A stretch of 43,605 nt of DNA from IMG/VR virus record IMGVR_UViG_3300025162_000081, positions 1-43,605 of that record. One strand, written 5' to 3'. This document shows, one piece after another, positions 1 to 23,862 of this stretch. The stretch's first letter is position 1. Each line of letters opens with the position of its first letter. The position numbers and the translations under genes are program-made. The notes under the pieces were generated by a model. That model worked only from the letters and a program-made list of their open reading frames with translations, did not search any database and had not been told where the DNA came from. This stretch comes from a virus.

Positions 1-597
1 TGATAAATAATTATTTTTATTTAATTCTATTTTTTTATTTTCGTTTTCTTCATAAACTATATACATTATGAAATATTTTCCATTATATTTTGGCTGAAAT
101 AATATTTGCTTTATTTTACCATTAATTTTATACGTGAAATCTATTTCTAAATTTATACCATTGTTTAATGCTTTATATTCTTTACCTCTATGAAAAGTTA
201 ATTTGCCTTCTTTTATTTTACTATTTTGATTCGTAAATATTACATTAAAGCAGTCACCTTTCTTTTTATATTTTGGGATCTGTATTTTATCATCATATTG
301 TCCATTATTTTTCTTTTTTAATAAAGCAAAAAATGATCTATAATTTTGATCAACCAATTTAACTATTTGTTGTGATGATTGAACTGGTAGTAAATTATAA
401 TTTTCGTTTGATTTAACTTCTTTTTCTAAAACGCCATAACCAATATATTTTCCAGTTTGTTTAAAATAATTATTAGCAATATATAATGAATAATTATAAA
501 GATTATTTGAATAGTGAGAATAATCCTTCAAAATTTTATATTGAGTTTTATTAAGTCTGATATGTTGTTTTAGTGTTCTAATAATAAATATAATTTT
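1..597 (-). CDS. TnpB-like protein, N-terminal ~190 aa only. ORF is open to the window edge and has no in-frame ATG, so it is a possible pseudogene or non-ATG start.
   Basis: Reverse-strand translation of 1..597 is stop-free: ..IIRTLKQHIRLNKTQYKILKDYSHYSNNLYNYSLYIANNYFKQTGKYIGYGVLEKEVKSNENYNLLPVQSSQQIVKLVDQNYRSFFALLKKKNNGQYDDKIQIPKYKKKGDCFNV... This has the TnpB N-terminal pattern (YxSFF..LKKK, PKYKKKG) also seen in the complete TnpB at 17034..18242. Not in the supplied ORF track because it runs off the edge. Confidence 0.4.
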
Positions 598-649: not shown

Positions 650-1300
650 TTATTCATATTTCTTAATTATTTCTTTACATTTTTTTATAAATTGATAAGC
701 ATATATCTGTTCCTGACTTTTAAGATCATAAAATCTTATTTCAAATTGATGATACAGCCAATCATCATATATAGTTCCATTACCATACCTCTTATCTAAA
801 CATTTCCATTTTTTATTTAATGATGACATTATGTAAAACAATTTAACATTGACGTCATATTGTGGTGCAACCCAACTAAATTCACCACCACAATCATATT
901 CATCTTTCAATCTAAAAGATGGTTTATTCATTTTTTCAAACACTTCTCTTGTTATACCAAAACAGGCTGGTGCTGCATAAACAAAATTTGGACTTCTCGT
1001 TTGATTTACTTGTTCAACACCTATTATAGAGTTGTTGTCTTCTATTTTGGATACTATATGCTCATATAAACCTGGTTTTAATGGTATACAGTCAATGTCA
1101 AAAAAGATTAATATATCAAAGTCTAATGAGTTTATTTTAGAATCTAACCAATAGTCATGAAATGGTAAATTAGTTAGTTCTTGAGTTAACTCCATACCAA
1201 AAGTATCAAAAACTGCTTTCTGATACTGTGGTACTTTATCTGGTATATTCTTCATATAACAAGAAAATGCTTCTACTTTTCTCCCATTTATTAGCTGCAT
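650..1300 (-). CDS. putative nucleotide-sugar glycosyltransferase-like protein (DxD motif 'FFDIDC')
   Basis: 216-aa ORF; DxD-like motif; lies at the 3' end of a co-directional glycosyltransferase block (1300..3754). Confidence 0.3.
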   Translation of the reverse strand: MQLINGRKVEAFSCYMKNIPDKVPQYQKAVFDTFGMELTQELTNLPFHDYWLDSKINSLDFDILIFFDIDCIPLKPGLYEHIVSKIEDNNSIIGVEQVNQTRSPNFVYAAPACFGITREVFEKMNKPSFRLKDEYDCGGEFSWVAPQYDVNVKLFYIMSSLNKKWKCLDKRYGNGTIYDDWLYHQFEIRFYDLKSQEQIYAYQFIKKCKEIIKKYE

Positions 1301-2175
1301 TATCTATTCAATACTACCAAGTAGTCTGTTCCTTTTTTTGTGACATACATTTTTTCACCATCATCTATAATTTCTAAAATATCTGGCACAATATTCCAAT
1401 CTTTCAATTTCTTAACAAAAAATAATTCATTCTTTCTAACATGATCCTGTGACCATTGCCTATTTCCAGACTTATGATCATAATATAAATGATATATTTT
1501 TGCTTGTGGAATAATCAGCAAATCATATCCTTTCCTAAATATTTCATACGTAAAAATAGTTTCTTCTCTAATTGATGATGGTTGCAATTCTAATGGATAA
1601 TCATTTGCTAACTCTCTATTAAAGAAATAGTTAGAATAAATATGTTGAACTTTTTTAATATCATCAGATTGTTCATGAACCATCTGTATATTAAATTCTG
1701 AATAAACATTCTCTATTTTATTATAATAGCCATCTTCTTCAACTGGAATCTTACTTGAATCTTTCTTATAAAATTCTGCTAGATATTTATCTATAATAAC
1801 ACCACTCATTGCGCCAACTGTAGGTTTAATATTATTAACAAATAATTCTAAAACATTACAGGATAGTATATTATCATCATCAGTCTTAAAAACCCAGCCA
1901 TCTTCTATTTCATCTAATCCCATCTGAAGTGCTGGTACAGCGCCTTTGCTCTGACCATAAAAATAATCAAATTGTATTCCTTTTTCTTTGAAAAGAACTA
2001 ATATGTTTTTTAGTGTTGGATAATCGTAAAAGTGTTTTTCCTTACTATCATCAACTAAAACTACCCGATCTGGCGGGTAGCTTTGGTTGAAAATAGACAT
2101 TAGGCAAAGTGGCAAAGTAGTGTCGTATCTATTACAAGTTGCAAGTAATACTGTTATTTTATTTTTCTTCTTCAT
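1300..2175 (-). CDS. family 2 glycosyltransferase (GT-A fold)
   Basis: N-terminus ITVLLATCNR..LPLCLMSIFNQSYPPDRVVLVDDSK matches the GT2 signature (Rossmann start, DD after beta4). Start overlaps the upstream gene end. Confidence 0.7.
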   Translation of the reverse strand: MKKKNKITVLLATCNRYDTTLPLCLMSIFNQSYPPDRVVLVDDSKEKHFYDYPTLKNILVLFKEKGIQFDYFYGQSKGAVPALQMGLDEIEDGWVFKTDDDNILSCNVLELFVNNIKPTVGAMSGVIIDKYLAEFYKKDSSKIPVEEDGYYNKIENVYSEFNIQMVHEQSDDIKKVQHIYSNYFFNRELANDYPLELQPSSIREETIFTYEIFRKGYDLLIIPQAKIYHLYYDHKSGNRQWSQDHVRKNELFFVKKLKDWNIVPDILEIIDDGEKMYVTKKGTDYLVVLNR

Positions 2176-3754
2176 AAATTCGGAAAACTTCTTTTATAAC
2201 CTCTTCTGGATCAGGTAGGTAATCATAAAGTGTTTTTCCTTGTGGAATCATATCAATTGTATCTGTTTTAAATTCTGTGTGTCTTATTTCAAGATCATCA
2301 AGAAGTAATTTTTTATATAATGCTTTTGTTTTATATGATTGTGTACCATTTCTAAAAGGTAAAATGTGATCTTCATGTTTACATGTTGGCATAACAACAA
2401 TCCAATTATCAAATGCGCCTGCAATGTGCAATGGTGATGAATCATTTGTTACCAATACTTTAGATAATGAAATTAATGCCATTAGTTCACCTAATGATGT
2501 AATATCTCTAAAATCATATCCATTTGCTGGACATTTTACTGGTAAATATCCTTGTTTGTCATCAATTGTTTTTCCAACAATTCCAACACATAATTTTTCA
2601 GATAGTCCATCAATAACTTTTTGCCACCAATCAACTGGGAATGTTTTACTTGGCCACCATTTTCCAGGATGAATTAAAACCAATTTCTTATCGTGTGGTT
2701 TATCTTTCAACATATCAATAACTGTAGCAACATCGTCAACATCAAGTTTTAATTTAATAGTTTTGTCTTTATTTGGAATAGTTCTTTTAATCATACTCAT
2801 TGTTGCAAAATCTGTTGGATGAAAAAGTACGTGAGATAATTTGTGCTCAGCTTGTTCATCATCAGGGCAAGTATATAAAGTAAGAACTGCATCTTGCATA
2901 CCTTTCCATTGGTCATAATCAAAAACTGGCATATCTAAATGCTCAAATAATCTAGTGAAGTGAGATACAACAAATATATTTGCATCTGGATATACTTTTT
3001 CTGTATACCTAATTGCTGGCTCAGCACATAATTGATCACCCATACCAGCAGTCACTGAAATAAGAATGTTTCTAGTGTATTTATATTCTGGACCATCATT
3101 TTTCCATTGTTCAATATCTTTTTGTAGTACACCCAATAAAATTTCTTTTGGTGCACCAGCATAATGTACTATATATGAATCAAGTCTGGATATACCAATA
3201 AATTTATCAAGTAAGTCCATTCTATTGTATCTATAATCAAGATCAAACATTGATACATCATCATTAAGAATTCTTAAATTAATATATGGTTGATCTGTTT
3301 CAACAAAATTAATACCTTTTGGCATTTTGAATATTTGTTTATGCATTCTTGAAATAACCATTACTCCTGAATTGTAGAATTTGCCTTTCCATTTTTTCAA
3401 TGGTTCACCATAATAAGACGAAGCCTGTTCAAGATATTCAAAACGTGGAGCATAAGCACCTTCATTAAACATACCTAATTTGTTTTCTGGTACAACTTCA
3501 AAAAGATTTGGTGTATCTTCTCTAACAATAAGATCAATATCTAAATAAATTATTCTTTTATACTTGTTTAAGAGTTCGTGTATATGAAATTTGTTCCATT
3601 TTTGAGTGATGTAATTAGGATCTGTTTCTGTAATATTAATAAAATCTGCGCCTATTCTTTTTGCATATTTTTTAATTGAAGGTAATGTGTACAGGCTTAG
3701 ATTTTCATGAAAATCCCCTATTGAGATAGTTAAAACTAAATTTTCTTTATTCAT
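2159..3754 (-). CDS. two-domain glycosyltransferase: N-terminal DxD GT (GT8-like, 'YLDIDLIV') fused to C-terminal GT9 heptosyltransferase-like domain
   Basis: C-terminal ...KLVLIHPGKWWPSKTFPVDWWQKVIDGL...VLVTNDSSPLHIAGAFDNWIVVM resembles the ADP-heptose:LPS heptosyltransferase C-terminus (GNDSGPMHLAAALG..). 531 aa. Confidence 0.55.
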   Translation of the reverse strand: MNKENLVLTISIGDFHENLSLYTLPSIKKYAKRIGADFINITETDPNYITQKWNKFHIHELLNKYKRIIYLDIDLIVREDTPNLFEVVPENKLGMFNEGAYAPRFEYLEQASSYYGEPLKKWKGKFYNSGVMVISRMHKQIFKMPKGINFVETDQPYINLRILNDDVSMFDLDYRYNRMDLLDKFIGISRLDSYIVHYAGAPKEILLGVLQKDIEQWKNDGPEYKYTRNILISVTAGMGDQLCAEPAIRYTEKVYPDANIFVVSHFTRLFEHLDMPVFDYDQWKGMQDAVLTLYTCPDDEQAEHKLSHVLFHPTDFATMSMIKRTIPNKDKTIKLKLDVDDVATVIDMLKDKPHDKKLVLIHPGKWWPSKTFPVDWWQKVIDGLSEKLCVGIVGKTIDDKQGYLPVKCPANGYDFRDITSLGELMALISLSKVLVTNDSSPLHIAGAFDNWIVVMPTCKHEDHILPFRNGTQSYKTKALYKKLLLDDLEIRHTEFKTDTIDMIPQGKTLYDYLPDPEEVIKEVFRIYEEEK

Positions 3755-3766
3755 ATAAATGCATTT

Positions 3767-4495
3767 TTATTTTTTATAGTTTACTGTGATGTAATTGTTT
3801 ATTTTATCTTCTAAATCTTTATTAATCCATTCAATATAACCGTTTATAATACCTTTTCCAGGATTAAAATTTGGAAATCTTGTGTCATTTACTTTTGGTA
3901 ATTCGTCTCCAATCTTACGACCAATATAATTTTCAATTATTGCTTTTTGATTATTAAAATCTAGTAAAATATCTTCATAGTTTAATACAAGTAAATTATC
4001 TTGATATTTTAACCAACCATCAATATGCATTTTCCATCTATGTATATAATTGTCTGGTTCTATTATAATGTGAGGGTCTGGTGAATATGGTGGCAAAAAT
4101 TGTCGTCCAACATCATCTGGCTTCATAAATATCCAATCTTCAAATTTTGGAAATTTACCTAAATCTTCTGGAAATGGTATAAATTTATAATAACTAACAA
4201 GAACATCTTTTAGATTTCTTTTAAGATAAATAACTTTATATTTATCAAAAACAATATCTAAATATGGTTCCATAAATTCTACTTGATGATGTGATTTACA
4301 TACAATATCTTCTATATAAGAATTAACTACAATATCTTTATAAACTTGATGTTCATAATTAGATAAAGTATAAGGTATAGTATTTATTGGAATAAATCCA
4401 ATGGTACGAAATTGACCAAAATTGTATTGGTTTATAATGTTGATTAGTAGATGTGTACCTGAGCGTTCGTGAGTGATTACTAATATTGGTTTCAT
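3767..4495 (-). CDS. sulfotransferase-family protein
   Basis: 5'-PSB-like P-loop 'THERSGTHLL' near the N-terminus and a 3'-PB-like 'YLKRNLKDVLVSYY' (R-x-x-K-D-x-x-V-S). 242 aa. Confidence 0.5.
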   Translation of the reverse strand: MKPILVITHERSGTHLLINIINQYNFGQFRTIGFIPINTIPYTLSNYEHQVYKDIVVNSYIEDIVCKSHHQVEFMEPYLDIVFDKYKVIYLKRNLKDVLVSYYKFIPFPEDLGKFPKFEDWIFMKPDDVGRQFLPPYSPDPHIIIEPDNYIHRWKMHIDGWLKYQDNLLVLNYEDILLDFNNQKAIIENYIGRKIGDELPKVNDTRFPNFNPGKGIINGYIEWINKDLEDKINNYITVNYKK

Positions 4496-4528
4496 TCTTA
4501 ATATATAAAAATGAAAGATGTTTGTTTA

Positions 4529-5776
4529 TTAAAAATTACAAACTCTAACAGGAGTTAATCTTTGTAATGTAGTATTATCACCCAATTGTCCATAATTATT
4601 AACTCCCCAAGTCCAAACATGTCCATTATAATCTATTGCAGATGCATTATAAACACCTGCTGACAAATAACAAAATGTCTTTTTTGCACCTTGTATTGAC
4701 ACTGGTGTACAAATTGATGATGTAGAATTATTACCCAAATATCCATTAACATTAGAACCCCAGCCCCATATTTGTCCATTATTATCTAAACCAAGAGTAT
4801 AATGAAATTTTCCTGTTGAAATTTGACAAAATGTTTTTTTTGCACCTTTTATTGATACTGGTGTATATCTTGATACCGTTGAGTTGTCTCCCAATTCACC
4901 ATATCCATTAAGACCCCAACACCATATTTGTCCATTTTTATCTATTGCCGATACATTATCATTACCCACTGATATTTGACAAAATGTCTTTTTAGCACCT
5001 TGAATTGATACTGGCGTACATGTACATATTATTGAATTATTACCTAATTGACCATATTTGTTATATCCCCAACCCCAAGCTTGTCCTTTATAATCTATAC
5101 CACTTGAATGATAATGAGTACCAATTGAAATTTGGCAAAATGTTTTTTTGTTACCTTGTATTGATATTGGCGTGCGTTTTGATGTTGTGGAATTATCACC
5201 TAAACAACCAAAATTATTATACCCCCAACCCCATAATATTCCATTTTTATCTATTCCAAATCCCAAATAACTACCTGCTGATATTTGGCAAAATGTTTTT
5301 TTGTTACCTTGTATTGATACAGGTGTACATTTTGATGTTGTGGAATTATTACCTAACATTCCATAATAATTATACCCCCAACCCCATATTTGCCCATTTT
5401 TATCTATTCCAAAAGAATATTGTTCCGAAGAACTTGTGTATACCTTACAAAAAGTTTTTTTAGCACCCTGTATTGATACTGGTATACAAGTTGATACAGT
5501 AGAATTATTACCTAATTGACCTTTTGTATTATACCCCCAAGCCCAAGTTTGTCCACTCTTCAATAATATATTGCCAAATCCAGAACTAATCATCATAGCG
5601 ACCCCCCAAGGTGCTGGTGCTGTATAGACCCAATTACTATAATATCCCATACTTGTGAGCCAAGTTTGAGCAGATAAAGCATTAGGTAAATTGGTATGAA
5701 ATGCTCTATTAACAACAGTTAAAAAAGCAGCATCAGATTTACCAATAGAACGCCAGAAAGAAGGTTGAATTGACAT
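4529..5776 (-). CDS. RCC1 / alpha-tubulin-suppressor-like repeat protein (about 7 repeats)
   Basis: Repeated 'WGWGYN.(Y/K)GQLGNNST.S.CTPVSIQG.KKTFC' units (RCC1 signature G.N..GQLG). The underlying ~150-bp DNA units are near-identical tandem repeats across about 4560..5560. Confidence 0.7.
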   Translation of the reverse strand: MSIQPSFWRSIGKSDAAFLTVVNRAFHTNLPNALSAQTWLTSMGYYSNWVYTAPAPWGVAMMISSGFGNILLKSGQTWAWGYNTKGQLGNNSTVSTCIPVSIQGAKKTFCKVYTSSSEQYSFGIDKNGQIWGWGYNYYGMLGNNSTTSKCTPVSIQGNKKTFCQISAGSYLGFGIDKNGILWGWGYNNFGCLGDNSTTSKRTPISIQGNKKTFCQISIGTHYHSSGIDYKGQAWGWGYNKYGQLGNNSIICTCTPVSIQGAKKTFCQISVGNDNVSAIDKNGQIWCWGLNGYGELGDNSTVSRYTPVSIKGAKKTFCQISTGKFHYTLGLDNNGQIWGWGSNVNGYLGNNSTSSICTPVSIQGAKKTFCYLSAGVYNASAIDYNGHVWTWGVNNYGQLGDNTTLQRLTPVRVCNF

Positions 5777-5845
5777 TTATAAAAATTTTAGTTTTAATAT
5801 ATATAAAAAATAGAGTGCATATTTTTTTATTTCAGATATTGTTCT

Positions 5846-5853
5846 TATATTTG
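5846..5853 (+). promoter_or_regulatory. Bacteroidota-type -7 promoter box TATATTTG immediately upstream of the tRNA
   Basis: TAnnTTTG match ends 5 nt before the tRNA 5' end at 5858. Same extended box recurs upstream of many ORFs in the window. Confidence 0.35.
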
Positions 5854-5857
5854 TTGT

Positions 5858-6052
5858 GCCGATGTAGCTCAGTTGGAATAAGAGCGCCACCTTCGAAGGT
5901 GGAACATTGAAGTAGATGAATATCAGTTGCAAATGATATAAAATTTATGAATATGTAGAGGTTGAGATCGAAAGTTTGTGTAAGATGCATATAAGCAAAC
6001 ATATAGGTTAATACTGAAGGGTCACAGGTTCGAGTCCTGTCATTGGAGCAAT
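5858..6052 (+). tRNA. interrupted tRNA gene: 5' part (acceptor, D-arm, anticodon arm; about 5858..5905) and 3' part (T-arm, acceptor; about 6019..6052) separated by a ~113-nt insertion. Anticodon loop is TTCGAA, so Arg(UCG) or Ser(CGA); identity uncertain.
   Basis: 5' part: GCCGATG-TA-GCTC-AGTTGGAATAA-GAGC-G-CCACC-TTCGAA-GGTGG. 3' part: ACAGG-TTCGAGT-CCTGT (canonical T-arm) then CATTGGA-G, which pairs with the 5' acceptor GCCGATG at 6 of 7 positions (1-72 G.A). The anticodon loop is only 6 nt between two perfect 5-bp stems. The intervening 113 nt has no tRNA-like fold I can see. Confidence 0.5.
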
Positions 6053-6665
6053 TTTAAGTTCTTTGAAAATATTAAAATGTTGTGAATTATAACCAGTAGA
6101 TAAGGGCGCAATCGGACTCTTTAAACATCGTGGGAATGCGTCTCTCCCAATGAGGCTGGAGTAATTCACAGTAAATGGGCTAAACATTGAGCCTTTGTGA
6201 AAAAATTGTGTAGTGAAAACGGAGGGGATGGCAATCCCACAAGATAGGAGTATAAATTTGTCCCTGCTCAGGTCCGCAAGACAATTCTTTGAGTAGAATC
6301 GGCAGAAAACCGAGAACCATGCGCCGTGCCTATCACGCAAAAATTTCACATAAAGATGATAATCCAGTAAATGGATGTTGGATATCAAGACGTCTTGATT
6401 TGAAAAGTAAACGCACCTAACGATTCAGAAATGAACCGAGGACAAAATTCTTAGGTCACCAACGGAGAAATCCTATACGTATCGTTACCATTGAGCAAGG
6501 TAAAACGGAACAGATGCTATGTCTGAAACAAGTACAATAAAAGTACAGTGATTTGATTTATCAAATCTAGGAAAACCGTCCAGACGATACGAATGAGTGC
6601 TCAGCCAAACCCTACTTACTATGTGGGAGTTTTCCGTCAGGGTAATTTCCAATCAGGTTAGAAGA
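6053..6665. ncRNA. unclassified structured-RNA candidate: ~600-nt G+C-enriched ORF-free segment next to the tRNA
   Basis: No ORF of 60 aa or more on the + strand. The only minus-strand ORF (6008..6388) is antisense to the tRNA and has atypical composition. G+C is visibly about 40-45% against about 25% background. Many local hairpins: GGGAT-GGCA-ATCCC at about 6225, GGGCT..AGCCT at about 6176, perfect palindrome ATCAAGACGTCTTGAT at about 6384. Strand and class undetermined. Confidence 0.3.
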
Positions 6666-7928: not shown

Positions 7929-8197
7929 ATGAAGAATATAAAAAAGTTTGGAAAGAATATTTGACTGAATATTTAAAAGACTACACAGTAAAAGATAATA
8001 AAAGTATTTATAGTCATTATAATGGTTATAATGATGATTACAAATTAAAGATTGTGGATTACACTCAAATGTTGAAAGAGAAAAAAGAAGATCCTAAAGT
8101 AGCAAATGAAAAAATTTTAGAAAAAATACCTATTGCTGAAATTGAAAAATTCTTACGTAAAAAGAAATTAGAAAATTTAAAAAATAAAGAAGAATGA
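7925..8197 (+). CDS. small hypothetical protein ending in the shared C-terminal tail ..KFLRKKKLENLKNKEE
   Basis: ATGA start/stop coupling with neighbours. Tail is shared with at least 9 other small ORFs (see findings). Confidence 0.5.
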   Translation: MNEEYKKVWKEYLTEYLKDYTVKDNKSIYSHYNGYNDDYKLKIVDYTQMLKEKKEDPKVANEKILEKIPIAEIEKFLRKKKLENLKNKEE

Positions 8198-8412
8198 ATT
8201 ATTCATTAGAAGATATTATGAAAGATATCTCAATTATAAAATATAGAAATCAATTTGAATGTGACTTTAATGACCATGAATATGAATATCAAAGGGAGTA
8301 TCGTAGAATGGAAGTTGAATGGAAAGAAAAATTGGATAATATTGATATTAAGTACATTGAAAAGTATTTGAGAAAAAAGAAATTAGAAAAATTAGAAAAA
8401 ATAAATCAATAA
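8194..8412 (+). CDS. small hypothetical protein ending ..KYLRKKKLEKLEKINQ (shared tail)
   Basis: 72-aa ORF, overlapping start/stop with neighbours. Confidence 0.5.
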   Translation: MNYSLEDIMKDISIIKYRNQFECDFNDHEYEYQREYRRMEVEWKEKLDNIDIKYIEKYLRKKKLEKLEKINQ

Positions 8413-8634
8413 ATGAGCAAAACAACAAAAAATGGAAGTAGTTTATCAGTAACTATATTTCTTATATTTTTAATCTTAAAACTTACTGGTACAATAACTT
8501 GGTCATGGTTGTGGGTGACTAGTCCATTATGGTTAGGCGTTGCACTATTTTTTGTAGGTGCATTTTTAATGTTACTATTTACTACTATAATAGTAGTATT
8601 AGGCACAATATTTGGAAGTAAAAATAATTTTTAA
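8413..8634 (+). CDS. small membrane protein (2 TM)
   Basis: Hydrophobic segments LSVTIFLIFLILKL and LGVALFFVGAFLMLLFTTIIVVLG. Confidence 0.45.
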   Translation: MSKTTKNGSSLSVTIFLIFLILKLTGTITWSWLWVTSPLWLGVALFFVGAFLMLLFTTIIVVLGTIFGSKNNF

Positions 8635-8636
8635 TT

Positions 8637-8894
8637 ATGAAACAAGACGTTTATCCTGAGATTAACCTTTCTCAAAGAATCATTTATGCTCTTAATGAAA
8701 CTTATCAACAAGGTGAAAAAGTTTATTATGATAATGGCTCAATTAGTGGATTTGGCACTGTATGTGGGCAATCATCTAATCCAGTTATATTTGTTGGTGC
8801 AACATATATTATTAGACCTGATGTTCCATTTGATCCTGCTGTGTATAATTTTACACATTTTGCCATACAACAACTTTATATGAAAAAACTTTAA
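8637..8894 (+). CDS. hypothetical protein
   Basis: 85-aa ORF following in the same operon-like block. Confidence 0.4.
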   Translation: MKQDVYPEINLSQRIIYALNETYQQGEKVYYDNGSISGFGTVCGQSSNPVIFVGATYIIRPDVPFDPAVYNFTHFAIQQLYMKKL

Positions 8895-8924
8895 AATTAA
8901 TTTGTTTATTCAAAAATTTAGTTT

Positions 8925-8932
8925 TACTTTTG
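8925..8932 (+). promoter_or_regulatory. -7 promoter box TACTTTTG (extended ..TTTGTAC)
   Basis: 25 nt upstream of a 36-aa ORF (ATG 8958). Confidence 0.3.
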
Positions 8933-9101
8933 TACAGTAAACTTAAAACAAACAATTATGAAACGCATTGGTAATAAATTAGTAGTTTTTGACGCAGGAG
9001 AATACACAGTAATTGGTACTTTCAAAAAGGACTCTAATGGACAAGAATACGTAGAGTATTCTATCTAAGATTTTCCGTTGACTTACGAAATCAACACCTC
9101 C

Positions 9102-9141
9102 AGACCCTTTCACAATTTGCAGAGTGAAAGGGTCTTTTCTT
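9102..9141. terminator. intrinsic terminator (12-bp stem AGACCCTTTCAC / GTGAAAGGGTCT + T-tract), bidirectional position
   Basis: Perfect 12-bp inverted repeat followed by TTTTCTT. Sits between the + block ending about 9068 and the minus gene ending 9143. Confidence 0.6.
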
Positions 9142-9142
9142 G

Positions 9143-9430
9143 TTATAAACTATTATGAATTGTATTTAACATTTCAATAGCGTCTTCAATATTATCAGAT
9201 TGATACAGAATATTTGGTTTATATAAACTATCAGTCATATCATCGTCACCAATTATAAGGGTATTGTTAAAGTAATATCTAATTACGATAGTGTTTATAT
9301 AATCAACTTCAGTATTAATGACTTTGTGTAATTCGATATACTTAAAATTATTACAATTTCTAACTATATTTTTAACAATAATATAATCATCAACTTCATT
9401 GATAACTGTTTGTTCAAATTTATGTTTCAT
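9143..9430 (-). CDS. hypothetical protein
   Basis: 95-aa ORF. Start abuts the upstream gene stop. Confidence 0.4.
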   Translation of the reverse strand: MKHKFEQTVINEVDDYIIVKNIVRNCNNFKYIELHKVINTEVDYINTIVIRYYFNNTLIIGDDDMTDSLYKPNILYQSDNIEDAIEMLNTIHNSL

Positions 9431-9678
9431 TAAATTTTTAGTGAATTATATGTTTGAATCTCTTCTATTGTCAATAATCTAATTATTTCATTTTCACTTA
9501 TCCACAAGGATCTAAGACCAATTGTTGAACACAAATATTGATTTGTTACATCTATATCTACTATTTTACAATAATACGACTCAATTGTTGTATAATCTTG
9601 TGGATAATAAATTAAAACATAATCATTTACAACATATAAAAGGCTGGGGTTAAAATAGTCTTCATGAATTTTTTCCAT
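9430..9678 (-). CDS. hypothetical protein
   Basis: 82-aa ORF. Confidence 0.4.
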   Translation of the reverse strand: MEKIHEDYFNPSLLYVVNDYVLIYYPQDYTTIESYYCKIVDIDVTNQYLCSTIGLRSLWISENEIIRLLTIEEIQTYNSLKI

Positions 9679-9715
9679 ATATTATATATTATTTTTTTAA
9701 TTGAAGTATTTTTCA

Positions 9716-9723
9716 TATCTTTG
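9716..9723 (+). promoter_or_regulatory. -7 promoter box TATCTTTG
   Basis: 23 nt upstream of ATG 9746. Same 'TATCTTTGT' as at 42032 and 42795. Confidence 0.35.
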
Positions 9724-9745
9724 TTCCTTATTAAATAAAAAGGCA

Positions 9746-10006
9746 ATGGACAATACAACTAAATGGTATAATTCAAATTATGATTGTTACGGTAATCCAC
9801 TAGGATATATTCAAGATGATATTCAAATAGGGGACACAGTTGAATATGCTTATGCAGATAACCATATGTCTGATGAAAGTGGTAGACCAAAAAGTAAAAG
9901 AGTAACTGTTAAAGTACAAGGTGTATGGGATGGTGAAAAGGCTTGTTTTAATGACAAAAAAAACGTTGTAGTAAGAGCTAAAGCCTGGTTAAAACTTGTT
10001 AAATAA
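9746..10006 (+). CDS. hypothetical protein
   Basis: ORF-track 9701 start is TTG. First ATG 9746 (MDNTTKWYNS..). Confidence 0.4.
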   Translation: MDNTTKWYNSNYDCYGNPLGYIQDDIQIGDTVEYAYADNHMSDESGRPKSKRVTVKVQGVWDGEKACFNDKKNVVVRAKAWLKLVK

Positions 10007-10455
10007 TGGAAAAGGAAATTAAAAGGCTTGAGGAACAGATTGCTAAATGTGATGTTAAATTATCAAATAGTTCTTTTGTTGATAAAGCACCAAAAGATAT
10101 TATTTTAAAAGAACAACAAAAAAAGAAAGACTTTACAGCACAATTAGAAATTATAAGAAAACAATTAGAAAATTCTAAATCAGTTAGTAAAGATTACTAT
10201 GACGATGAAATTTGTCAATTCACAGTTGGCACAACTGTTTCCTATTTTAAGATACCAAGAACAGAAAGAAAAAAAGAATTTCTAATTTCTAAATTAGATA
10301 GTGTAGAAAAAATAAATTGGCATATTCAATATTTACGTGAACAAAAGACTAATATTGAAATATACAGTGAAGAATGGTATAACTTTATTTATAATGAGGA
10401 AATCACATCTAATGAAATAAATGAATTATTTGAAATTTTTAGGAAATTTGTATGA
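10006..10455 (+). CDS. hypothetical coiled-coil protein
   Basis: 149 aa. ATGG/TAATG-type coupling to neighbours. Confidence 0.45.
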   Translation: MEKEIKRLEEQIAKCDVKLSNSSFVDKAPKDIILKEQQKKKDFTAQLEIIRKQLENSKSVSKDYYDDEICQFTVGTTVSYFKIPRTERKKEFLISKLDSVEKINWHIQYLREQKTNIEIYSEEWYNFIYNEEITSNEINELFEIFRKFV

Positions 10456-11240: not shown

Positions 11241-11474
11241 GTGAAAACTTGTAAAAAGATTTCAACTGGAGAGATATTTGAATATGAACAATGTGTTTCT
11301 TATCCTGTATTTGATAGAACTCGAAATAACGGCACAATATATTTTGAATTAATTTCAAAAGGTAAGTTTGTTCTGGGTAAGTATATTGGTGAGGACGAAT
11401 TTTATGATGAATATATTGATATTAAAAAAGAAAGAAGACTTAAATTAGAAAAATTAAATCAAATTCTCCAATAA
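11241..11474 (+). CDS. hypothetical protein (GTG start) ending ..KKERRLKLEKLNQILQ (tail variant)
   Basis: No ATG start; weak. Confidence 0.25.
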   Translation: MKTCKKISTGEIFEYEQCVSYPVFDRTRNNGTIYFELISKGKFVLGKYIGEDEFYDEYIDIKKERRLKLEKLNQILQ

Positions 11475-12397
11475 AACCCTTTATATTTAGTATTTTTTGC
11501 TATCGCCTTTCTTAAGTTTTGAATACATATTTCATTATAATTTTTTATTTCCTTAATATTATTCCAAATCCTAACTATACTTCCTTTTTCGTCTATTTGT
11601 TTAATGTTAGTATATTCTCTCGTATTTAAATTTAATTTTTTAATATTATTCTCAATTTCGGCTTTTTCTAAAAAGTTTAATGAATAATAATAATTTTTAG
11701 CATGCCTACATCTATCTTGTAAAACGAAACTTATAGAACGTGGATTAACATTCATTTCTCTTGAGCATTCTTTTATACTGTTAAATTTTTTTATATAATT
11801 TCCAAACATATCATATTGATATATCTCTATGTTTGTACATTTATTTTTATTATCTCTTATTGGTATATTATTTTCTTTTAATATTTTAGTAATAGTTTCT
11901 CTATCAATTTTTAATTCTATTGATATTTTTTTAATTGATAATTTATTAAAATATAATTCTTTAACTACATCAAGATATTTGCTCCTTTTTAATTTGTATG
12001 CTTTTGATACATTATTTCTATGTTCGTTTGTCCATTTCAATTCTAAATTTGTTGCCGCAAATGCTCTAGAATTATATCCATTTTTATAAGAGTTATATTC
12101 ATCAATATAATACTGTTCTCTTTTTATGCAACTATCACGATCACACTCTTCAATTATTTCAAATATTATATTATCAATTCCATACTTATTGACCGCATTT
12201 TGTAAAGAAGGTGAGTTAGATATATTTTTTGATAGTTTTAAAATATGACTGAGCCATCTTTTATGAAACCCATTTTTATTAGAAGTACTACCAATATAAA
12301 CTTTACCATTATTGTTAATAAAACTTATCTTATATACACCAATACTTTTAGGGAATATTTTTTTATCATTTATCGTATATTTCATTTTATATTTCAT
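11459..12397 (-). CDS. GIY-YIG homing endonuclease with NUMOD1-type C-terminal DNA-binding modules
   Basis: N-terminus IGVYKISFINNNGKVYIGSTSN....R...H is the GIY-YIG motif. C-terminal ..KGFYWRI helix module. Confidence 0.8.
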   Translation of the reverse strand: MKYKMKYTINDKKIFPKSIGVYKISFINNNGKVYIGSTSNKNGFHKRWLSHILKLSKNISNSPSLQNAVNKYGIDNIIFEIIEECDRDSCIKREQYYIDEYNSYKNGYNSRAFAATNLELKWTNEHRNNVSKAYKLKRSKYLDVVKELYFNKLSIKKISIELKIDRETITKILKENNIPIRDNKNKCTNIEIYQYDMFGNYIKKFNSIKECSREMNVNPRSISFVLQDRCRHAKNYYYSLNFLEKAEIENNIKKLNLNTREYTNIKQIDEKGSIVRIWNNIKEIKNYNEICIQNLRKAIAKNTKYKGFYWRI

Positions 12398-12677: not shown

Positions 12678-12848
12678 ATGCCTAGAAAAAAAATGCCAGA
12701 CGAAGAAAAAAAAACAAGATTAACATTAAAAATAAATGATAATCTACTTCATAAATTTGATAGCCTATTAAAATTAGATGATAAAAAAAGATCAACTAAA
12801 ATTGAAGAATTATTACAAGAATATATTAATAAAAGAAATAATGACTGA
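12678..12848 (+). CDS. ribbon-helix-helix small protein, 56 aa (candidate antitoxin or repressor)
   Basis: Own translation: MPRKKMPDEEKKTRLTLKINDNLLHKFDSLLKLDDKKRSTKIEELLQEYINKRNND. Stop TGA overlaps the ATG of the next gene (ATGACTGA). Confidence 0.5.
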   Translation: MPRKKMPDEEKKTRLTLKINDNLLHKFDSLLKLDDKKRSTKIEELLQEYINKRNND

Positions 12849-13452
12849 AGCAGAGAAAATATGTGATGAATTAAATATAGATTACTCTAAAGTTTTGAAC
12901 ATCTACATGTATGGTTCGAAAATTTACGGTACTAATGATGAGTTTTCTGATAGTGATTATATCATTGTTTTTAAATCGTCGTTGCTTCCAAGCGGCGCAT
13001 TTAGAGATAATGCTATTTCATCTGTGGATTATAGCACGCAAGCCGTTTGTTATTCAAGATCAGGCTTCATTGATGCAATAAACAACTACGAAATTGGTGC
13101 TTTAGAATGTATTTTCTTACCAGAAGATAAGATAGTTCAGAAGAAAATGAACTTTGGTATTACAAAATACAACGACAAAGAATTATCAAAAAAAATTATT
13201 CAAAAGGCATCTGCAAGTTGGCACTTTGCAACTTTAGCACACAAAGATGATAATATGGAATCTTGTGCTAAGAATGTTTTTCATGCTTTGAGAATTTTAG
13301 ATTTTGGTATTCAAGTTAAAAGAAACAAAACAATTGTCGATTATTCAAGTATGAATAAAATACAGGCTGAAATAATGAACAACTTTAATTATTTTAATCC
13401 ATATGATTATTATGATATGTTTATAAATTTAAGTGAGGAAATTAAGAAATGA
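12841..13452 (+). CDS. minimal nucleotidyltransferase (Pol-beta superfamily) with helical C-terminal domain
   Basis: hG[GS]x9-13DxD motif: YMYGSKIYGTNDEFSDSDYIIVF. I prefer the 12841 start (MTEAEK..), coupled to the RHH stop, over the track's 12778 start, which would overlap the RHH ORF. Confidence 0.55.
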   Translation: MTEAEKICDELNIDYSKVLNIYMYGSKIYGTNDEFSDSDYIIVFKSSLLPSGAFRDNAISSVDYSTQAVCYSRSGFIDAINNYEIGALECIFLPEDKIVQKKMNFGITKYNDKELSKKIIQKASASWHFATLAHKDDNMESCAKNVFHALRILDFGIQVKRNKTIVDYSSMNKIQAEIMNNFNYFNPYDYYDMFINLSEEIKK

Positions 13453-17029: not shown

Positions 17030-18242
17030 ACTACTAAGTAGTTTCCTTACAAAGATTATACTTTATAAGAACTTTAGATAAATCTAAAGGCTCGTTCATA
17101 GAAGCAAAGTGATTTCCGAACCACCTATTCAATATATTTATGGCTGAATTTAAATCACGGTCTATAATTATGGTGTCTGATAACTGAACTTCCCTATTAC
17201 CAAGACTTATTTTATCTTTAAATAGTTTTCCAGTTAGACAGTTAATTTGTGTTGTCCATTTTTCATCAATTTTCACCAAGTTGGTATTTTTTGCTTGACA
17301 CTTATATGTAAGGAATTGTAGAAACATATTGATATTAGATTGACTAAATGACTTTCTAATACCTTTTTTATTCTCATTCACTCCTTCTGTTGACATTAGC
17401 CTCTTAACTGTTAGATCACCAACTACAATTGTATTGTAGTTCATATTCGATAACTTTTTACTCTGAATATGAAGAGTTTGTTTTATTTGTTCGTTCTTTT
17501 TATGATAACATTTATTTAATGTTTTTTTCAATAATAAGTTTCTATTTGATCCTTTTGTTGTTTTACTCCTTTTGTTTTGTATTTTTGCTATTTGTTTCTG
17601 ATAATAATCATTAATTTTTTTAGATTTATTTTTTAATACAATCATACCACCTTTATTATCTATTCCTGTTCCTAATTTACTTAACCCCAAATCAATAGCA
17701 AGAACTTTAGTTTTAACATTAACATCATTAAAATATTCTATTTTATCGTCAATCACCAAATCACACAACCATTTATGTCTAATAAATTTAATTCTTATTT
17801 CTTTTATTTTTAAATCTTTAATATTTAAATTTGATTTATATTCAAATGGAATTTGATTTAGAAAGAACAATCCTTTTTTTATCATCCATCCTGATTGATT
17901 AAAAGAAATAGTATGAAAATAATTATTTTCTATTTTTCTTGGTGGTTTAGCATTTTTATCTTTTTTTATCAAATTAAAAAATGACCTATAAGATCCATAT
18001 AATTCTGTTGCTATTGTTTGAATTGCCTTTGAATTTAATTTCTTCCAATCTGGATATTCTTCTTTTAATAATGGTAATAAATTATTTAACTTGAATTTAT
18101 CTAAAATTATTTTATCTGTTTCATATTTATCTTGTTGTATATCAAGCAATTTATTCCATATATCTTTACGAATATCAGATAATTCTTGTAATTCAAGAAT
18201 TTGTTCTTTTGATGGAAATAATCTTATTTGATACGTCTTCAT
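17030..18242 (-). mobile_element. IS200/IS605-family tnpB-only (IS1341-like) element; ends not determined
   Basis: TnpB ORF with no adjacent tnpA. Its stop is only 5 nt from the convergent RNA-ligase stop, so any right-end/omega-RNA scaffold must overlap 3' sequence there. Confidence 0.3.
17034..18242 (-). CDS. tnpB: TnpB (IS605 OrfB) RuvC-like RNA-guided-nuclease family protein
   Basis: N-terminus MKTYQIRLFPSKEQ. RuvC-I VLAIDLGLSKLGTG. C-terminal CLTGK...IIDRDLNSAINIL (RuvC-III DRDxNAAxNI). 402 aa. Confidence 0.8.
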   Translation of the reverse strand: MKTYQIRLFPSKEQILELQELSDIRKDIWNKLLDIQQDKYETDKIILDKFKLNNLLPLLKEEYPDWKKLNSKAIQTIATELYGSYRSFFNLIKKDKNAKPPRKIENNYFHTISFNQSGWMIKKGLFFLNQIPFEYKSNLNIKDLKIKEIRIKFIRHKWLCDLVIDDKIEYFNDVNVKTKVLAIDLGLSKLGTGIDNKGGMIVLKNKSKKINDYYQKQIAKIQNKRSKTTKGSNRNLLLKKTLNKCYHKKNEQIKQTLHIQSKKLSNMNYNTIVVGDLTVKRLMSTEGVNENKKGIRKSFSQSNINMFLQFLTYKCQAKNTNLVKIDEKWTTQINCLTGKLFKDKISLGNREVQLSDTIIIDRDLNSAINILNRWFGNHFASMNEPLDLSKVLIKYNLCKETT

Positions 18243-23715: not shown

Positions 23716-23862
23716 AAGATAGTGGCGTTTGATAAGACTAAGGCATTGGATTTAAATAATGGAATAACATTATGTGAAAAGTGTCACAAATTATTTCATA
23801 AAAATTATGGTAAAAAAGAAAATAATATAGAACAATTAAATGAATTTTTAAATGAAAAATAA
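23716..23862 (+). pseudogene. C-terminal remnant of an HNH endonuclease (..ALDLNNGITLCEKCHKLFHKNYG..)
   Basis: Frame contains D..N...LC..CH...H, the second half of the HNH motif. The N-terminal H/GG half is missing, and the upstream ATG at 23689 is out of frame and terminates after 17 codons. Confidence 0.4.

What the first reader, a model, noticed from the sequence alone, without database searches (positions are those of the whole stretch)
650..4495. Surface-glycan style module: GT2, DxD-GT::GT9 heptosyltransferase fusion, sulfotransferase, plus distant GmhA (41424..42008)
Four co-directional genes encode a putative GT, a GT2, a two-domain GT whose C-terminal half resembles ADP-heptose heptosyltransferases, and a sulfotransferase-family protein. 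A sedoheptulose-7-phosphate isomerase (the first step of ADP-heptose synthesis) is encoded 37 kb away. A virus carrying heptose-pathway and sulfation enzymes could remodel host LPS or capsule (superinfection exclusion) or glycosylate its own particle. The adjacent RCC1 beta-propeller could be the glycosylated or adhesin component.
Basis: partly seen in the sequence, partly recalled or inferred. Interest (0 to 1): 0.5.

Follow-up and report, generated by a model that had tools for sequence, protein, structure and literature searches.

The report
Phage glycan cassette tied to RCC1
A large freshwater bacteriophage carries a tight operon of sugar-adding and sulfating enzymes, and its core two-in-one glycosyltransferase sits directly after a propeller-shaped, fibre-region protein in nearly all related phages, so the phage probably decorates its own particle with sugars; this has not been tested experimentally.

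Summary
On the minus strand, 650-5776 holds a five-gene operon: an RCC1 propeller, a sulfotransferase, a GT8::GT9 fusion, a GT2, and a 216-aa protein that I show has a GT-A fold with a DxD motif. The gene at 41424-42008 is a real GmhA, not DiaA.

The window comes from a large tailed phage. Related contigs reach 451-531 kb, and the host is probably a Bacteroidota.

The main new result concerns the fusion. It is a phage-restricted family, not found in cultured phages or GTDB representative genomes. In 32 of 34 informative related loci it lies within two genes downstream of an RCC1-repeat gene. The same holds in three distant members (44-48% identity) on contigs of 32-59% GC. These loci usually sit beside collagen-like tail-fibre genes and near a T4-type portal and terminase.

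None of the enzymes has a membrane segment, and no lipid-carrier machinery is present. The most likely function is cytoplasmic glycosylation of the RCC1/fibre protein, with sulfation here and methylation in relatives. Host LPS remodelling remains possible.

The link to heptose is only partly supported. The GT9 residues that bind ADP-heptose are invariant, but no other heptose gene was found. The closest cellular GmhA lies beside an HddA-type (GDP-heptose) kinase.

Novelty: a new variant of a known kind.

The parts
4529..5776 (-). First gene of the operon. A 415-aa protein with a ~55-aa N-terminal extension and a seven-bladed RCC1 beta-propeller. It is the candidate acceptor, a fibre-region protein.
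   Evidence: PF00415 205.9 bits with 7 repeats, PF25390 228 bits. Seven WxWG blades listed. It clusters with the ~680-760-aa RCC1 proteins found directly upstream of the fusion in relatives, at 45-58% identity.
3767..4495 (-). PAPS-type sulfotransferase, 242 aa.
   Evidence: PF00685 52.4 bits. PDB cytosolic sulfotransferases at E=2e-6, with the RNxxDvvvS 3'-phosphate-binding motif aligned. The N-terminal 'ERSGTH' loop can be read in the sequence. No membrane segment.
3089..3754 (-). GT8-type GT-A domain of the fusion, about residues 1-222. D72-x-D74 and H197 ('HYAGAPK') are present.
   Evidence: PF01501 35.1 bits. Family profile against LgtC E=1e-3, with the DxD motif aligned. Foldseek matches to Mimivirus R699, PBCV-1 A64R, LH3, GlyE and glycogenin. 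D72, D74 and H197 are invariant in 37 sequences.
2159..3079 (-). GT9-type GT-B domain of the fusion, about residues 226-531, plus the stop codon. It carries G-M-G-D240, P-S-K370-T-F-P and T-N-D438-S-S-P-L-H443.
   Evidence: PF01075 35.9 bits. Family profile against WaaF 1psw E=1e-4. Foldseek: 3tov 2e-11, 1psw 4.5e-9, TibC 2.4e-8, WaaC 5e-7. These residues are invariant.
1300..2175 (-). GT2-family glycosyltransferase, 291 aa.
   Evidence: PF00535 33.2 bits against a cut-off of 23.3. It travels with the 216-aa protein and the sulfotransferase in the closest relatives.
650..1300 (-). 216-aa GT-A-fold protein with an invariant D68-I-D70 motif. Probably a third glycosyltransferase, from a family without a profile.
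   Evidence: No Pfam, NCBIfam or PHROG hit. 61 metagenomic homologues. AlphaFold pLDDT 96. Foldseek matches to R699, WrtF, LH3, STIV A197 and ppGalNAc-T at E about 2e-5 and TM about 0.5.
1..590 (-). 5' part of a TnpB/IS605-type gene, cut by the window start, immediately downstream of the operon. It probably interrupts or ends the cassette here.
   Evidence: The translation of the homologous contig end, which is 100% identical, reads as a TnpB-like protein. In another contig that carries the identical fusion protein, the same position holds Methyltransf_24, GT2, Methyltransf_24 and BNR genes.
41424..42008 (+). GmhA, sedoheptulose-7-phosphate isomerase, 194 aa. It is solitary and only a possible precursor supplier for the cassette.
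   Evidence: TIGR00441 211.2 bits against 209.45; DiaA model far below its cut-off. PDB GmhA at E=1e-56 with the 'AQH..E' and 'IQE.H...GH' motifs conserved. It is syntenic with the MVP-like and endolysin genes in relatives.

Best explanation
This is a phage-encoded, cytoplasmic protein-glycosylation cassette that is functionally coupled to the RCC1 beta-propeller gene at its head.

Proposed mechanism:
1. The 531-aa bifunctional enzyme acts first. Its inverting GT9-type GT-B domain adds a first sugar, most likely a heptose from a nucleotide-heptose, to Ser/Thr of the RCC1 or fibre protein. Its retaining GT8-type GT-A domain then adds a hexose.
2. The GT2 and the 216-aa GT-A protein extend or branch the glycan.
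3. The sulfotransferase sulfates it using PAPS. In relatives, one or two methyltransferases methylate it.
4. The decorated protein is assembled into the tail-fibre region of the virion.

The solitary GmhA would raise the supply of D-glycero-D-manno-heptose-7-phosphate, with host enzymes completing nucleotide activation.

Shown: the gene identities, folds, catalytic motifs, operon structure, conserved RCC1-to-fusion gene order, fibre context in relatives, and absence of membrane or lipid-carrier components. Inferred: the acceptor, the donor sugars, the order of steps, virion incorporation, and the role of GmhA.
For: 1. Conserved gene order. In 41 IMG/VR loci plus 4 metagenome loci, 28 of the 34 loci with more than 1.5 kb upstream have an RCC1-repeat gene directly upstream of the fusion, and 32 of 34 have one within two genes. 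Directly downstream lies a methyltransferase-like 183-aa gene in 25 loci and the GT2 in 12.
2. The pairing survives deep divergence. Members at 44-48% identity, on contigs of 32%, 43% and 59% GC, again have an RCC1 gene directly upstream. One of them also has collagen-like genes.
3. Virion context. Upstream neighbours are collagen-like proteins and proteins matching tail-fibre PHROGs. A T4-type portal (PF07230, 247 bits) and TerL lie about 7 kb downstream.
4. The fusion is phage-restricted. There is no relative in 185,579 GTDB representative genomes beyond weak GT8-only hits, and none in 50,697 cultured or deposited phages. In metagenomes it is a large family (742 hits; 232 clusters at E<1e-30).
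5. Fold neighbours include protein-glycosylating enzymes: TibC, LH3, Mimivirus R699, PBCV-1 A64R, GlyE and glycogenin.
6. The catalytic machinery is intact and invariant.
7. No hydrophobic segment occurs in any of the five proteins, and the genes overlap tightly.
8. RCC1 diverges faster (45-58% identity) than the fusion (73-84%), as expected for an exposed, host-interacting protein.
Against: - There is no direct evidence that the RCC1 protein is a virion component or a glycoprotein.
- In this window the cassette is not next to fibre genes. tblastn with the fibre-region proteins of relatives found nothing in the window, and the RCC1 protein is a shortened single-propeller version.
- GT8 and GT9 are the classic LPS-core families, and LPS-core transferases are also soluble or peripheral enzymes. 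The lack of membrane segments therefore does not exclude LPS as the acceptor.
- The TibC-specific features are absent, so the analogy rests on fold only.
- A 33%-identity family member lacks the RCC1 neighbour.
- The donor sugar is unknown, and the rest of a heptose pathway was not found. Only about 54 kb of a genome that may be several hundred kb could be inspected.
Confidence: 0.45

Rival explanations
1. Host envelope remodelling. The enzymes act on the host's LPS/LOS core or another cell-surface glycan during infection, adding heptose, hexose and sulfate. This masks the receptor, giving superinfection exclusion and preventing progeny from re-adsorbing to lysing cells. GmhA supplies the heptose.
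For: GT8 and GT9 are the families of the LPS-core transferases WaaJ/LgtC and WaaC/WaaF. The best sequence-level PDB matches are WaaF and LgtC, and NCBIfam's best hits are heptosyltransferases I-III. A GT9 gene in a huge phage has been read this way in the literature (PMC10747093). GmhA is present.
Against: All NCBIfam heptosyltransferase scores are far below their cut-offs, for example 27.7 against 134.6. The fusion is absent from bacterial representative genomes, so it is not a recently captured host LPS gene. This model does not explain why the gene stays glued to an RCC1 gene and to tail-fibre genes across contigs of 27-59% GC. No Gtr-type, Wzx/Wzy or initiating-transferase genes are present, and no membrane segments were found.
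Confidence: 0.2
2. The cassette glycosylates other virion proteins, such as collagen-like fibres, capsid or tail tube. The RCC1 propeller is not the acceptor but a co-assembled receptor-binding or lectin module, or an adaptor that presents substrates to the enzyme.
For: Collagen-like fibre genes lie next to the RCC1 gene in most relatives, some extremely Ser/Thr-rich. The GT-A half resembles the collagen glycosyltransferases LH3 and R699. Virion glycosylation of capsid and tail tube is known in mycobacteriophages (cited in PMC12619734).
Against: Collagen-like genes are not adjacent in this window, and their sequences are not consistently Ser/Thr-rich across lineages. RCC1 is the invariant neighbour.
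Confidence: 0.15
3. GmhA is unrelated to the cassette. It is a separate auxiliary metabolic gene, for example feeding host GDP-heptose capsule or O-antigen synthesis or draining sedoheptulose-7-phosphate. The GT9-like domain uses a donor that needs no phage help, or a non-heptose donor.
For: GmhA is solitary, and it keeps its own conserved neighbourhood (MVP-like protein, endolysin) in relatives. It is 37 kb away on the other strand here. Its closest cellular homologue (69% identity) lies beside an HddA-type kinase (NF049969, E=4e-123) in a polysaccharide cluster, which is the GDP-heptose route. No kinase, phosphatase or nucleotidyltransferase of either heptose route was found in the window.
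Against: Both genes occur on the same contigs of this lineage. In a 99%-identical variant they are about 7.5 kb apart and co-oriented. GmhA is rare in phages, with 12 of 50,697 records matching, so finding it together with a GT9 domain that retains the heptose-contacting Asp, His and Lys is suggestive.
Confidence: 0.4
4. DNA hypermodification. The transferases glycosylate modified bases in phage DNA to evade restriction.
For: Phage GT-A and GT-B enzymes do glycosylate DNA, as reviewed in PMC12619734.
Against: No hydroxymethylase or base-modification genes lie next to the cassette. A sulfotransferase, sugar-type methyltransferases and a conserved RCC1/tail-fibre neighbourhood do not fit this model.
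Confidence: 0.04

Closest known systems
LPS-core heptosyltransferases WaaC/WaaF (CAZy GT9; PDB 2h1h, 1psw) and the GT9 protein of Veillonella (3tov)
   Same: GT-B fold. The best structural and sequence matches to the C-terminal half come from this group. The catalytic Asp in the first beta-alpha loop, the phosphate-binding Lys, and the D-S/T-x-x-x-H heptose-contacting motif are all present and invariant.
   Different: Identity is only about 12-15%. All NCBIfam equivalog scores are far below their cut-offs. The domain is fused to a GT8 domain, is phage-restricted, sits in a fibre-gene context, and its acceptor is unknown.
Autotransporter heptosyltransferases TibC/Aah (BAHT family; PDB 4rap, 4rb4)
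   Same: A GT9-like GT-B enzyme that heptosylates many Ser residues of a repetitive beta-structured surface protein encoded next to it (PMC4358343). Fold match E=2.4e-8. The gene arrangement is analogous: a repeat protein next to its transferase.
   Different: There is no four-cysteine iron-finger, as only two Cys are invariant. No N-terminal beta-barrel or thumb was identified. The acceptor would be a beta-propeller rather than a beta-helix. No heptosylation has been shown.
GT8 retaining transferases (LgtC; glycogenin; GlyE) and viral GT-A protein glycosyltransferases (PBCV-1 A64R, Mimivirus R699, human LH3)
   Same: The N-terminal half has the GT-A fold, DxD and a downstream His. Pfam GT8 scores above its cut-off, and the profile match to LgtC is E=1e-3.
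   Different: Identity is low (12-16%). The domain is fused to a GT-B domain. The donor and acceptor are unknown.
Virion glycosylation in mycobacteriophages and glycan cassettes of chloroviruses and mimiviruses
   Same: The concept is the same: virus-encoded transferases, with methyltransferases in chloroviruses, decorate structural proteins in the cytoplasm (for the phage case; the rest is my own knowledge).
   Different: The enzyme families and acceptor are different. A sulfotransferase and a possible heptose have not, to my knowledge, been reported for phage virions.
Sedoheptulose-7-phosphate isomerase GmhA (PDB 2x3y, 2i22, 1x92)
   Same: About 55% identity to B. pseudomallei GmhA over the full length. 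The equivalog model scores above its cut-off and the active-site motifs are conserved.
   Different: It is encoded by a phage, it is solitary, and the rest of either heptose pathway has not been seen.

Membership tests
CAZy GT9 / Pfam PF01075 (heptosyltransferase family) | Profile match above the curated threshold | tested here: met
   PF01075 scores 35.9 bits against a cut-off of 22, residues 334-450. The family profile matches WaaF at E=1e-4.
CAZy GT9 / Pfam PF01075 (heptosyltransferase family) | GT-B fold of two Rossmann-like lobes | tested here: met
   AlphaFold pLDDT 87, pTM 0.80. Foldseek matches: 3tov 2e-11, 1psw 4.5e-9, 2h1h 5e-7.
CAZy GT9 / Pfam PF01075 (heptosyltransferase family) | Catalytic Asp in the first beta-alpha loop of the N-lobe (HepI Asp13) | tested here: inconclusive
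   G237-M-G239-D240 is invariant and follows strand 229-233 of the model, as 'SMGD13' does in HepI. The role of the residue is taken from bioRxiv 10.1101/2021.06.16.448588. The equivalence rests on motif and position, not on a residue-level superposition.
CAZy GT9 / Pfam PF01075 (heptosyltransferase family) | Phosphate-binding Lys (HepI Lys192) and heptose-contacting Asp261/His266 | tested here: met
   HMMER aligns 'PSK370TLP' with WaaF 'PAKRWP', and 'TND438SSPLH443' with WaaF 'TNDSGLMH'. All are invariant.
CAZy GT9 / Pfam PF01075 (heptosyltransferase family) | Uses ADP-heptose as donor | not testable with these tools
   This needs an enzyme assay. No heptose-activating genes were found in the window.
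LPS heptosyltransferase I/II/III equivalogs (TIGR02193/02195/02201) | Score above the equivalog cut-off | tested here: not met
   Scores are 19.0 against 185.3, 27.7 against 134.6, and 19.5 against 170.2.
BAHT (TibC/Aah) protein heptosyltransferases | Four-cysteine iron-finger required for dodecamer assembly and activity | tested here: not met
   Only C243 and C296 are invariant cysteines in 37 sequences. The feature is defined in PMC4358343.
BAHT (TibC/Aah) protein heptosyltransferases | Catalytic-domain fold similarity | tested here: met
   Foldseek matches 4rap and 4rb4 at E=2.4e-8 to 1e-6, with TM about 0.5 on the target.
CAZy GT8 / Pfam PF01501 | Profile above threshold, with the DxD metal and nucleotide-sugar motif | tested here: met
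   35.1 bits against 24.3. 'YLDID' aligns with the DxD of LgtC. D72 and D74 are invariant.
GmhA (sedoheptulose-7-phosphate isomerase) | Equivalog score above cut-off, and better than DiaA | tested here: met
   TIGR00441 scores 211.2 against 209.45, a narrow margin. DiaA NF008138 scores 135.8 against 352. The PDB ranking places GmhAs (1e-56 to 1e-36) above DiaA (1e-35).
GmhA (sedoheptulose-7-phosphate isomerase) | Active-site and Zn ligands (His, Glu, Gln, His of B. pseudomallei GmhA) | tested here: met
   'AQHLAAE' and 'IQECHIMIGH' align with 'AQHIAGE' and 'IQEGHLVLGH' of 2x3y. The residue roles come from my knowledge of the published structures.
Complete nucleotide-heptose pathway (HldE/GmhB/HldD or HddA/GmhB/HddC) | Kinase, phosphatase and nucleotidyltransferase genes present | tested here: not met
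   None was found among about 87 ORFs of the window or in the 10 kb beyond GmhA. The rest of the genome could not be read.
PAPS-dependent sulfotransferase (PF00685) | Profile above threshold, with PAPS-binding motifs | tested here: met
   52.4 bits against 22. The 3'-phosphate-binding motif 'RNLKDVLVS' aligns with SULT2B1 'RNPRDVVVS'.
Gtr-type or Wzx/Wzy-dependent serotype-conversion modules | Integral-membrane flippase, polymerase or GtrA/B/V proteins | tested here: not met
   No 19-residue window exceeds a Kyte-Doolittle score of 1.5 in any of the five proteins. No such Pfam families were found.

The most novel reading that the evidence does not exclude
The RCC1 beta-propeller is a tail-fibre-region virion protein that is multiply O-heptosylated by the phage-specific GT8::GT9 enzyme. 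It is then hexosylated, sulfated and, in relatives, methylated. This would be a phage counterpart of TibC/AIDA-I autotransporter heptosylation and the first heptose-containing, sulfated glycoprotein on a bacteriophage particle. It would be widespread in uncultured large freshwater phages, with a phage GmhA boosting the heptose supply.
Probability: 0.2. Interest if true: 0.75.

Novelty: new variant of a known kind. Interest (0 to 1): 0.55.

Why it matters
Virion glycosylation is well documented in giant viruses of eukaryotes, but among bacteriophages I know it only for a few mycobacteriophages. This cassette points to a large, uncultured group of big freshwater phages that keep a dedicated bifunctional transferase next to a propeller and fibre gene over very deep divergence. 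That implies a conserved glycoprotein at the host-recognition end of the particle.

If confirmed, it would add a new acceptor class (RCC1 propellers) and possibly new chemistry (heptose, sulfate, O-methyl) to phage surfaces. This bears on host range, on evasion of host or grazer recognition, and on how 'LPS genes' in viral metagenomes are annotated. Such genes are routinely called auxiliary metabolic genes for host LPS.

It also yields a simple testable pair, RCC1 plus the fusion enzyme, for heterologous expression.

Tried and rejected
- **Cultured or deposited phages.** tblastn of the fusion and of the sulfotransferase found nothing. blastn of the first 8 kb matched only a phosphoesterase region of Flavobacterium phages.
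- **GTDB representative genomes.** Only weak GT8-domain hits.
- **IMG/VR pattern scan with GmhA.** No relative found; this method detects close relatives only.
- **Fibre-region genes inside the window.** tblastn with the fibre-region proteins of relatives found none.
- **HAD 'Hydrolase' hit.** I considered it as a possible GmhB. Judging by its DMDGV motif, it is probably the same ORF as the NT5C 5'-nucleotidase hit. This was not verified separately.
- **ORF 12778-13452.** It matches a PHROG called 'nucleotidyltransferase' but has no Pfam or NCBIfam support as a sugar nucleotidyltransferase.
- **The 760-aa neighbour in relatives.** It has a weak 'cytidyltransferase' PHROG hit at E=6e-7, which could hint at an adenylyltransferase. 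Neither Pfam nor NCBIfam supports this, so I left it open.
- **Promoter and terminator scan.** Matches were at chance level for promoters, and no terminator-like site lies inside the operon.
- **Rfam searches.** Nothing found on the window or on the 5.7-7.1 kb gap.
- **AFDB fold search.** The library was unavailable.
- **'Moraphage' paper (PMC12619734).** It describes large aquatic Bacteroidota phages with several core glycosyltransferases. I could not test whether this is the same lineage.
- **Giant virus of eukaryotes.** I considered this early because of the low GC, ankyrin, RCC1 and MVP. I rejected it because of T4 gp30.3, a peptidoglycan endolysin, dense overlapping small genes, and the T4-type portal and terminase in relatives.

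Full report
**1. The observation**

- RCC1: 4529-5776
- sulfotransferase: 3767-4495
- 531-aa two-domain protein: 2159-3754
- GT2: 1300-2175
- 216-aa ORF: 650-1300

The junctions are 33, 12, -17 and -1 nt, so this is one tight operon headed by the RCC1 gene.

Every family assignment passes Pfam's curated threshold: GT2 33.2 bits (cut-off 23.3), GT8 35.1 (24.3), GT9 35.9 (22), Sulfotransfer_1 52.4 (22), and RCC1 205.9 with seven repeats.

The 216-aa ORF matches no Pfam, NCBIfam or PHROG profile. It has 61 metagenomic homologues, and D68-I-D70 is invariant. Its AlphaFold model (pLDDT 96) has a GT-A fold whose nearest solved structures are glycosyltransferases: Mimivirus R699, WrtF, LH3, STIV A197 and ppGalNAc-transferases (E about 2e-5, TM about 0.5).

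The gene at 41424-42008 passes the GmhA equivalog model narrowly (211.2 against 209.45). It falls far short of the DiaA model (135.8 against 352). It aligns end to end with Burkholderia pseudomallei GmhA (E=1e-56), with the His/Glu and Gln/His motifs conserved.

**2. What the genome is**

The window is 27% GC and about 90% coding, with some 87 mostly small, often overlapping ORFs. It encodes:
- a T4 gp30.3 homologue (E=3e-55), a glucosaminidase endolysin, and a cold-shock protein;
- GIY-YIG/NUMOD homing endonucleases and TnpB-type transposases.

This is a tailed phage, not a giant virus of eukaryotes.

The window is identical to part of the 74.7-kb JGI contig Ga0212088_10000722. Syntenic relatives at 70-80% nucleotide identity lie on contigs of 451,924 and 531,023 bp that look phage-like throughout the stretches I could read. 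The lineage probably consists of very large phages.

A Bacteroidota host is likely but not shown. The only DNA-level match to a cultured phage is to Flavobacterium phages. The nearest cellular GmhA homologues (65-70% identity) include a Flavobacteriales MAG and a contig encoding a CHU_C-domain protein.

**3. The fusion protein**

An alignment of 37 family members (61-88% identity to the window protein) gave a confident two-domain model (pLDDT 87, pTM 0.80).

*C-terminal half.* It is a GT-B domain. Its best solved neighbours are GT9 proteins:
- Veillonella 3tov, 2e-11
- WaaF 1psw, 4.5e-9
- the protein heptosyltransferase TibC, 2.4e-8
- WaaC, 5e-7

A family profile finds WaaF by sequence (E=1e-4). 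The residues that define GT9 chemistry in HepI are the catalytic Asp13, Lys192 on the phosphate, and Asp261/His266 on the heptose hydroxyls. Their counterparts here are invariant in the family: G-M-G-D240, P-S-K370-T, and T-N-D438-S-S-P-L-H443. The Asp13 equivalence rests on motif and position only.

The domain is nevertheless not an orthologue of the LPS enzymes, since all equivalog scores are far below their cut-offs. It also lacks TibC's four-cysteine iron finger.

*N-terminal half.* It is a GT-A domain of GT8 type. It has D72-x-D74 and H197 in 'HYAGAPK', and the profile matches LgtC at E=1e-3. Its structural neighbours are largely protein-glycosylating enzymes: R699, PBCV-1 A64R, LH3, GlyE and glycogenin.

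Predicted viral structures contain stand-alone GT9-like and GT8-like proteins from uncultured phages, but the same fusion does not appear among the top hits.

**4. Gene-order evidence, the main new result**

The fusion is abundant in metagenomes. There are 742 hits, and the best 120 are at least 61% identical. It has no relative in 50,697 phage records. In 185,579 GTDB representative genomes there are only weak GT8-only matches.

I fetched 41 IMG/VR loci, added four metagenome loci, and clustered their ORFs. The results:
- Of 34 loci with more than 1.5 kb upstream, 28 have an RCC1-repeat gene directly upstream of the fusion, and 32 have one within two genes.
- Directly downstream lies a 183-aa protein in 25 loci and the GT2 in 12.

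The 183-aa protein is methyltransferase-like (PDB 3cvo, E=4e-6).

The genes further upstream are collagen-like proteins of up to 1,986 aa and proteins matching tail-fibre PHROGs. A T4-type portal (247 bits) and a large terminase lie about 7 kb downstream in several loci.

In the closest relatives (84% identity, for example L012) the order is: three tail-fibre genes, RCC1, fusion, GT2, the 216-aa GT-A protein, sulfotransferase, methyltransferase-like gene, and then two proteins of more than 1,000 aa. This is the same enzyme set as in the window, embedded in a fibre module.

An exhaustive search showed that the GT8::GT9 architecture is a broad family. It has 232 clusters at E<1e-30, full-length matches extend down to about 30% identity, and some members carry an extra N-terminal GT domain. 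I sampled four distant members:
- Three members at 44-48% identity, on contigs of 32%, 43% and 59% GC, again have an RCC1 gene directly upstream. The 59% GC contig also has collagen-like genes.
- A member at 33% identity does not. It is followed by two methyltransferases.

Such persistence across base composition and sequence divergence indicates functional coupling between the RCC1 protein and the enzyme.

The fusion is also more conserved (73-84%) than RCC1 (45-58%) between the same loci. That fits a conserved enzyme acting on a fast-evolving exposed protein.

**5. Features peculiar to this window**

- The RCC1 protein is a single seven-bladed propeller of 415 aa, with a 55-aa N-terminal extension, rather than the ~680-760-aa proteins seen elsewhere.
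- No fibre genes are adjacent.
- A 0.9-kb non-coding stretch lies upstream of the operon.
- A TnpB gene lies immediately downstream of it.
- In another contig carrying the identical fusion protein, the operon instead continues with Methyltransf_24, GT2, Methyltransf_24 and a BNR-repeat gene.

The window's copy therefore looks like a rearranged or truncated version of the cassette.

**6. GmhA and heptose**

GmhA is rare in phage records, with 12 matching records of 50,697. In this lineage it is conserved (76-82% identity) in a fixed neighbourhood with an MVP-like protein and the endolysin, and it is always solitary.

No kinase, phosphatase, nucleotidyltransferase or epimerase of either heptose route is present in the window or in the 10 kb beyond it. 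The remainder of the genome could not be read.

A close cellular homologue I inspected (69% identity) lies beside a GHMP kinase. That kinase matches the HddA model over its full length (E=4e-123, below the model's cut-off) and sits in a polysaccharide cluster. This is the GDP-D-glycero-alpha-D-manno-heptose route, whereas characterised GT9 enzymes use ADP-heptose.

In favour of a link:
- Both genes share contigs.
- In a 99%-identical variant contig, the GmhA region joins window 10425..8075 in inverted orientation. That puts GmhA about 7.5 kb from the cassette on the same strand.

I rate the link as plausible, at about even odds.

**7. Mechanism**

None of the five proteins has a hydrophobic segment, and no flippase, polymerase, initiating transferase or Gtr component is present. 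The chemistry must therefore happen in the cytoplasm on a soluble or peripheral acceptor.

The best-supported reading is stepwise glycosylation of the RCC1 or fibre protein before virion assembly:
1. The GT9 domain, inverting and probably using heptose, acts on the protein.
2. The GT8 domain, retaining and using a hexose, extends the glycan.
3. The GT2 and the 216-aa GT-A protein extend or branch it.
4. It is sulfated, and in relatives O-methylated.

The acceptor, donors, order of steps and virion location are inferred.

The main rival is remodelling of the host LPS/LOS core. It rests on the family names and cannot be excluded, because LPS-core transferases are also soluble. However, it does not explain the RCC1 and fibre linkage or the absence of the enzyme from bacterial genomes. 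DNA glycosylation is unlikely.

**8. Comparison with what is known, and novelty**

Already known:
- phage-encoded glycosyltransferases;
- GT9-like genes in huge phages, read there as LPS auxiliary genes (PMC10747093);
- virion glycosylation in mycobacteriophages (cited).

In my literature searches I found no description of:
- a conserved RCC1-propeller/GT8::GT9 gene pair in tail-fibre modules;
- a phage cassette combining such an enzyme with a sulfotransferase and a GmhA.

I class this as a new variant of a known kind, of moderate interest. It offers a clear and cheap experimental test.

Noticed in passing
window 34998-37409 (+): An 803-aa protein with a Major Vault Protein shoulder domain (PF11978, 93 bits) and a vault repeat (PF17795, 39 bits). 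It is conserved next to the endolysin and GmhA in relatives, including a 531-kb contig. Vault-protein homologues in phages are unusual and deserve a separate look.
   Followed up: partly
window 5780-6660: About 0.9 kb without a credible ORF, with GC near 33% against 27% overall. It contains tRNA-like halves at about 5858-5905 and 6017-6049 (+). ARAGORN finds nothing by default, but calls a tRNA with a 105-nt insert when introns are allowed. There is no Rfam match even at E<=1. It could be an interrupted tRNA or an undescribed structured RNA.
   Followed up: partly
window 8075-10425, compared with locus L007 7394-9745: A 99%-identical metagenomic variant joins the GmhA/CYTH region to window 10425..8075 in inverted orientation. 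This implies a strain-level inversion or rearrangement of roughly 30 kb or more. GmhA then lies about 7.5 kb from the RCC1-GT cassette on the same strand.
   Followed up: partly
window 1-590 (-), 17034-18242 (-); 11459-12397 (-), 30736-31386 (+), 37972-38742 (+): Two TnpB/IS605-type genes, one cut by the window start and lying directly downstream of the cassette, and three GIY-YIG/NUMOD homing endonuclease genes that cluster together. Mobile elements may explain the rearrangements and the contig breaks.
   Followed up: no
loci L067 8001-10253 and L070 1138-4119: Distant members of the fusion family carry a third N-terminal transferase domain: a second GT8-like domain in P0308 and a GT25-like domain in P0315. 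They are followed by further small GT8-like or methyltransferase genes.
   Followed up: partly
window 27064-27621 (+), 23852-24865 (+), 38727-39095 (+): A PduO-type cob(I)alamin adenosyltransferase (TIGR00636, 168.6 bits against a cut-off of 108.45), a radical SAM protein of unclear type, and a cREC_REC cyclic-phosphate receiver-domain protein. Somewhere in the window there are also GGDEF and NADAR domain proteins.
   Followed up: no
loci L004 (451,924-bp contig) and L050 (531,023-bp contig): Syntenic relatives of both ends of the window lie on contigs of about half a megabase with phage-like gene content. The window's lineage may therefore belong to the very largest phages.
   Followed up: partly
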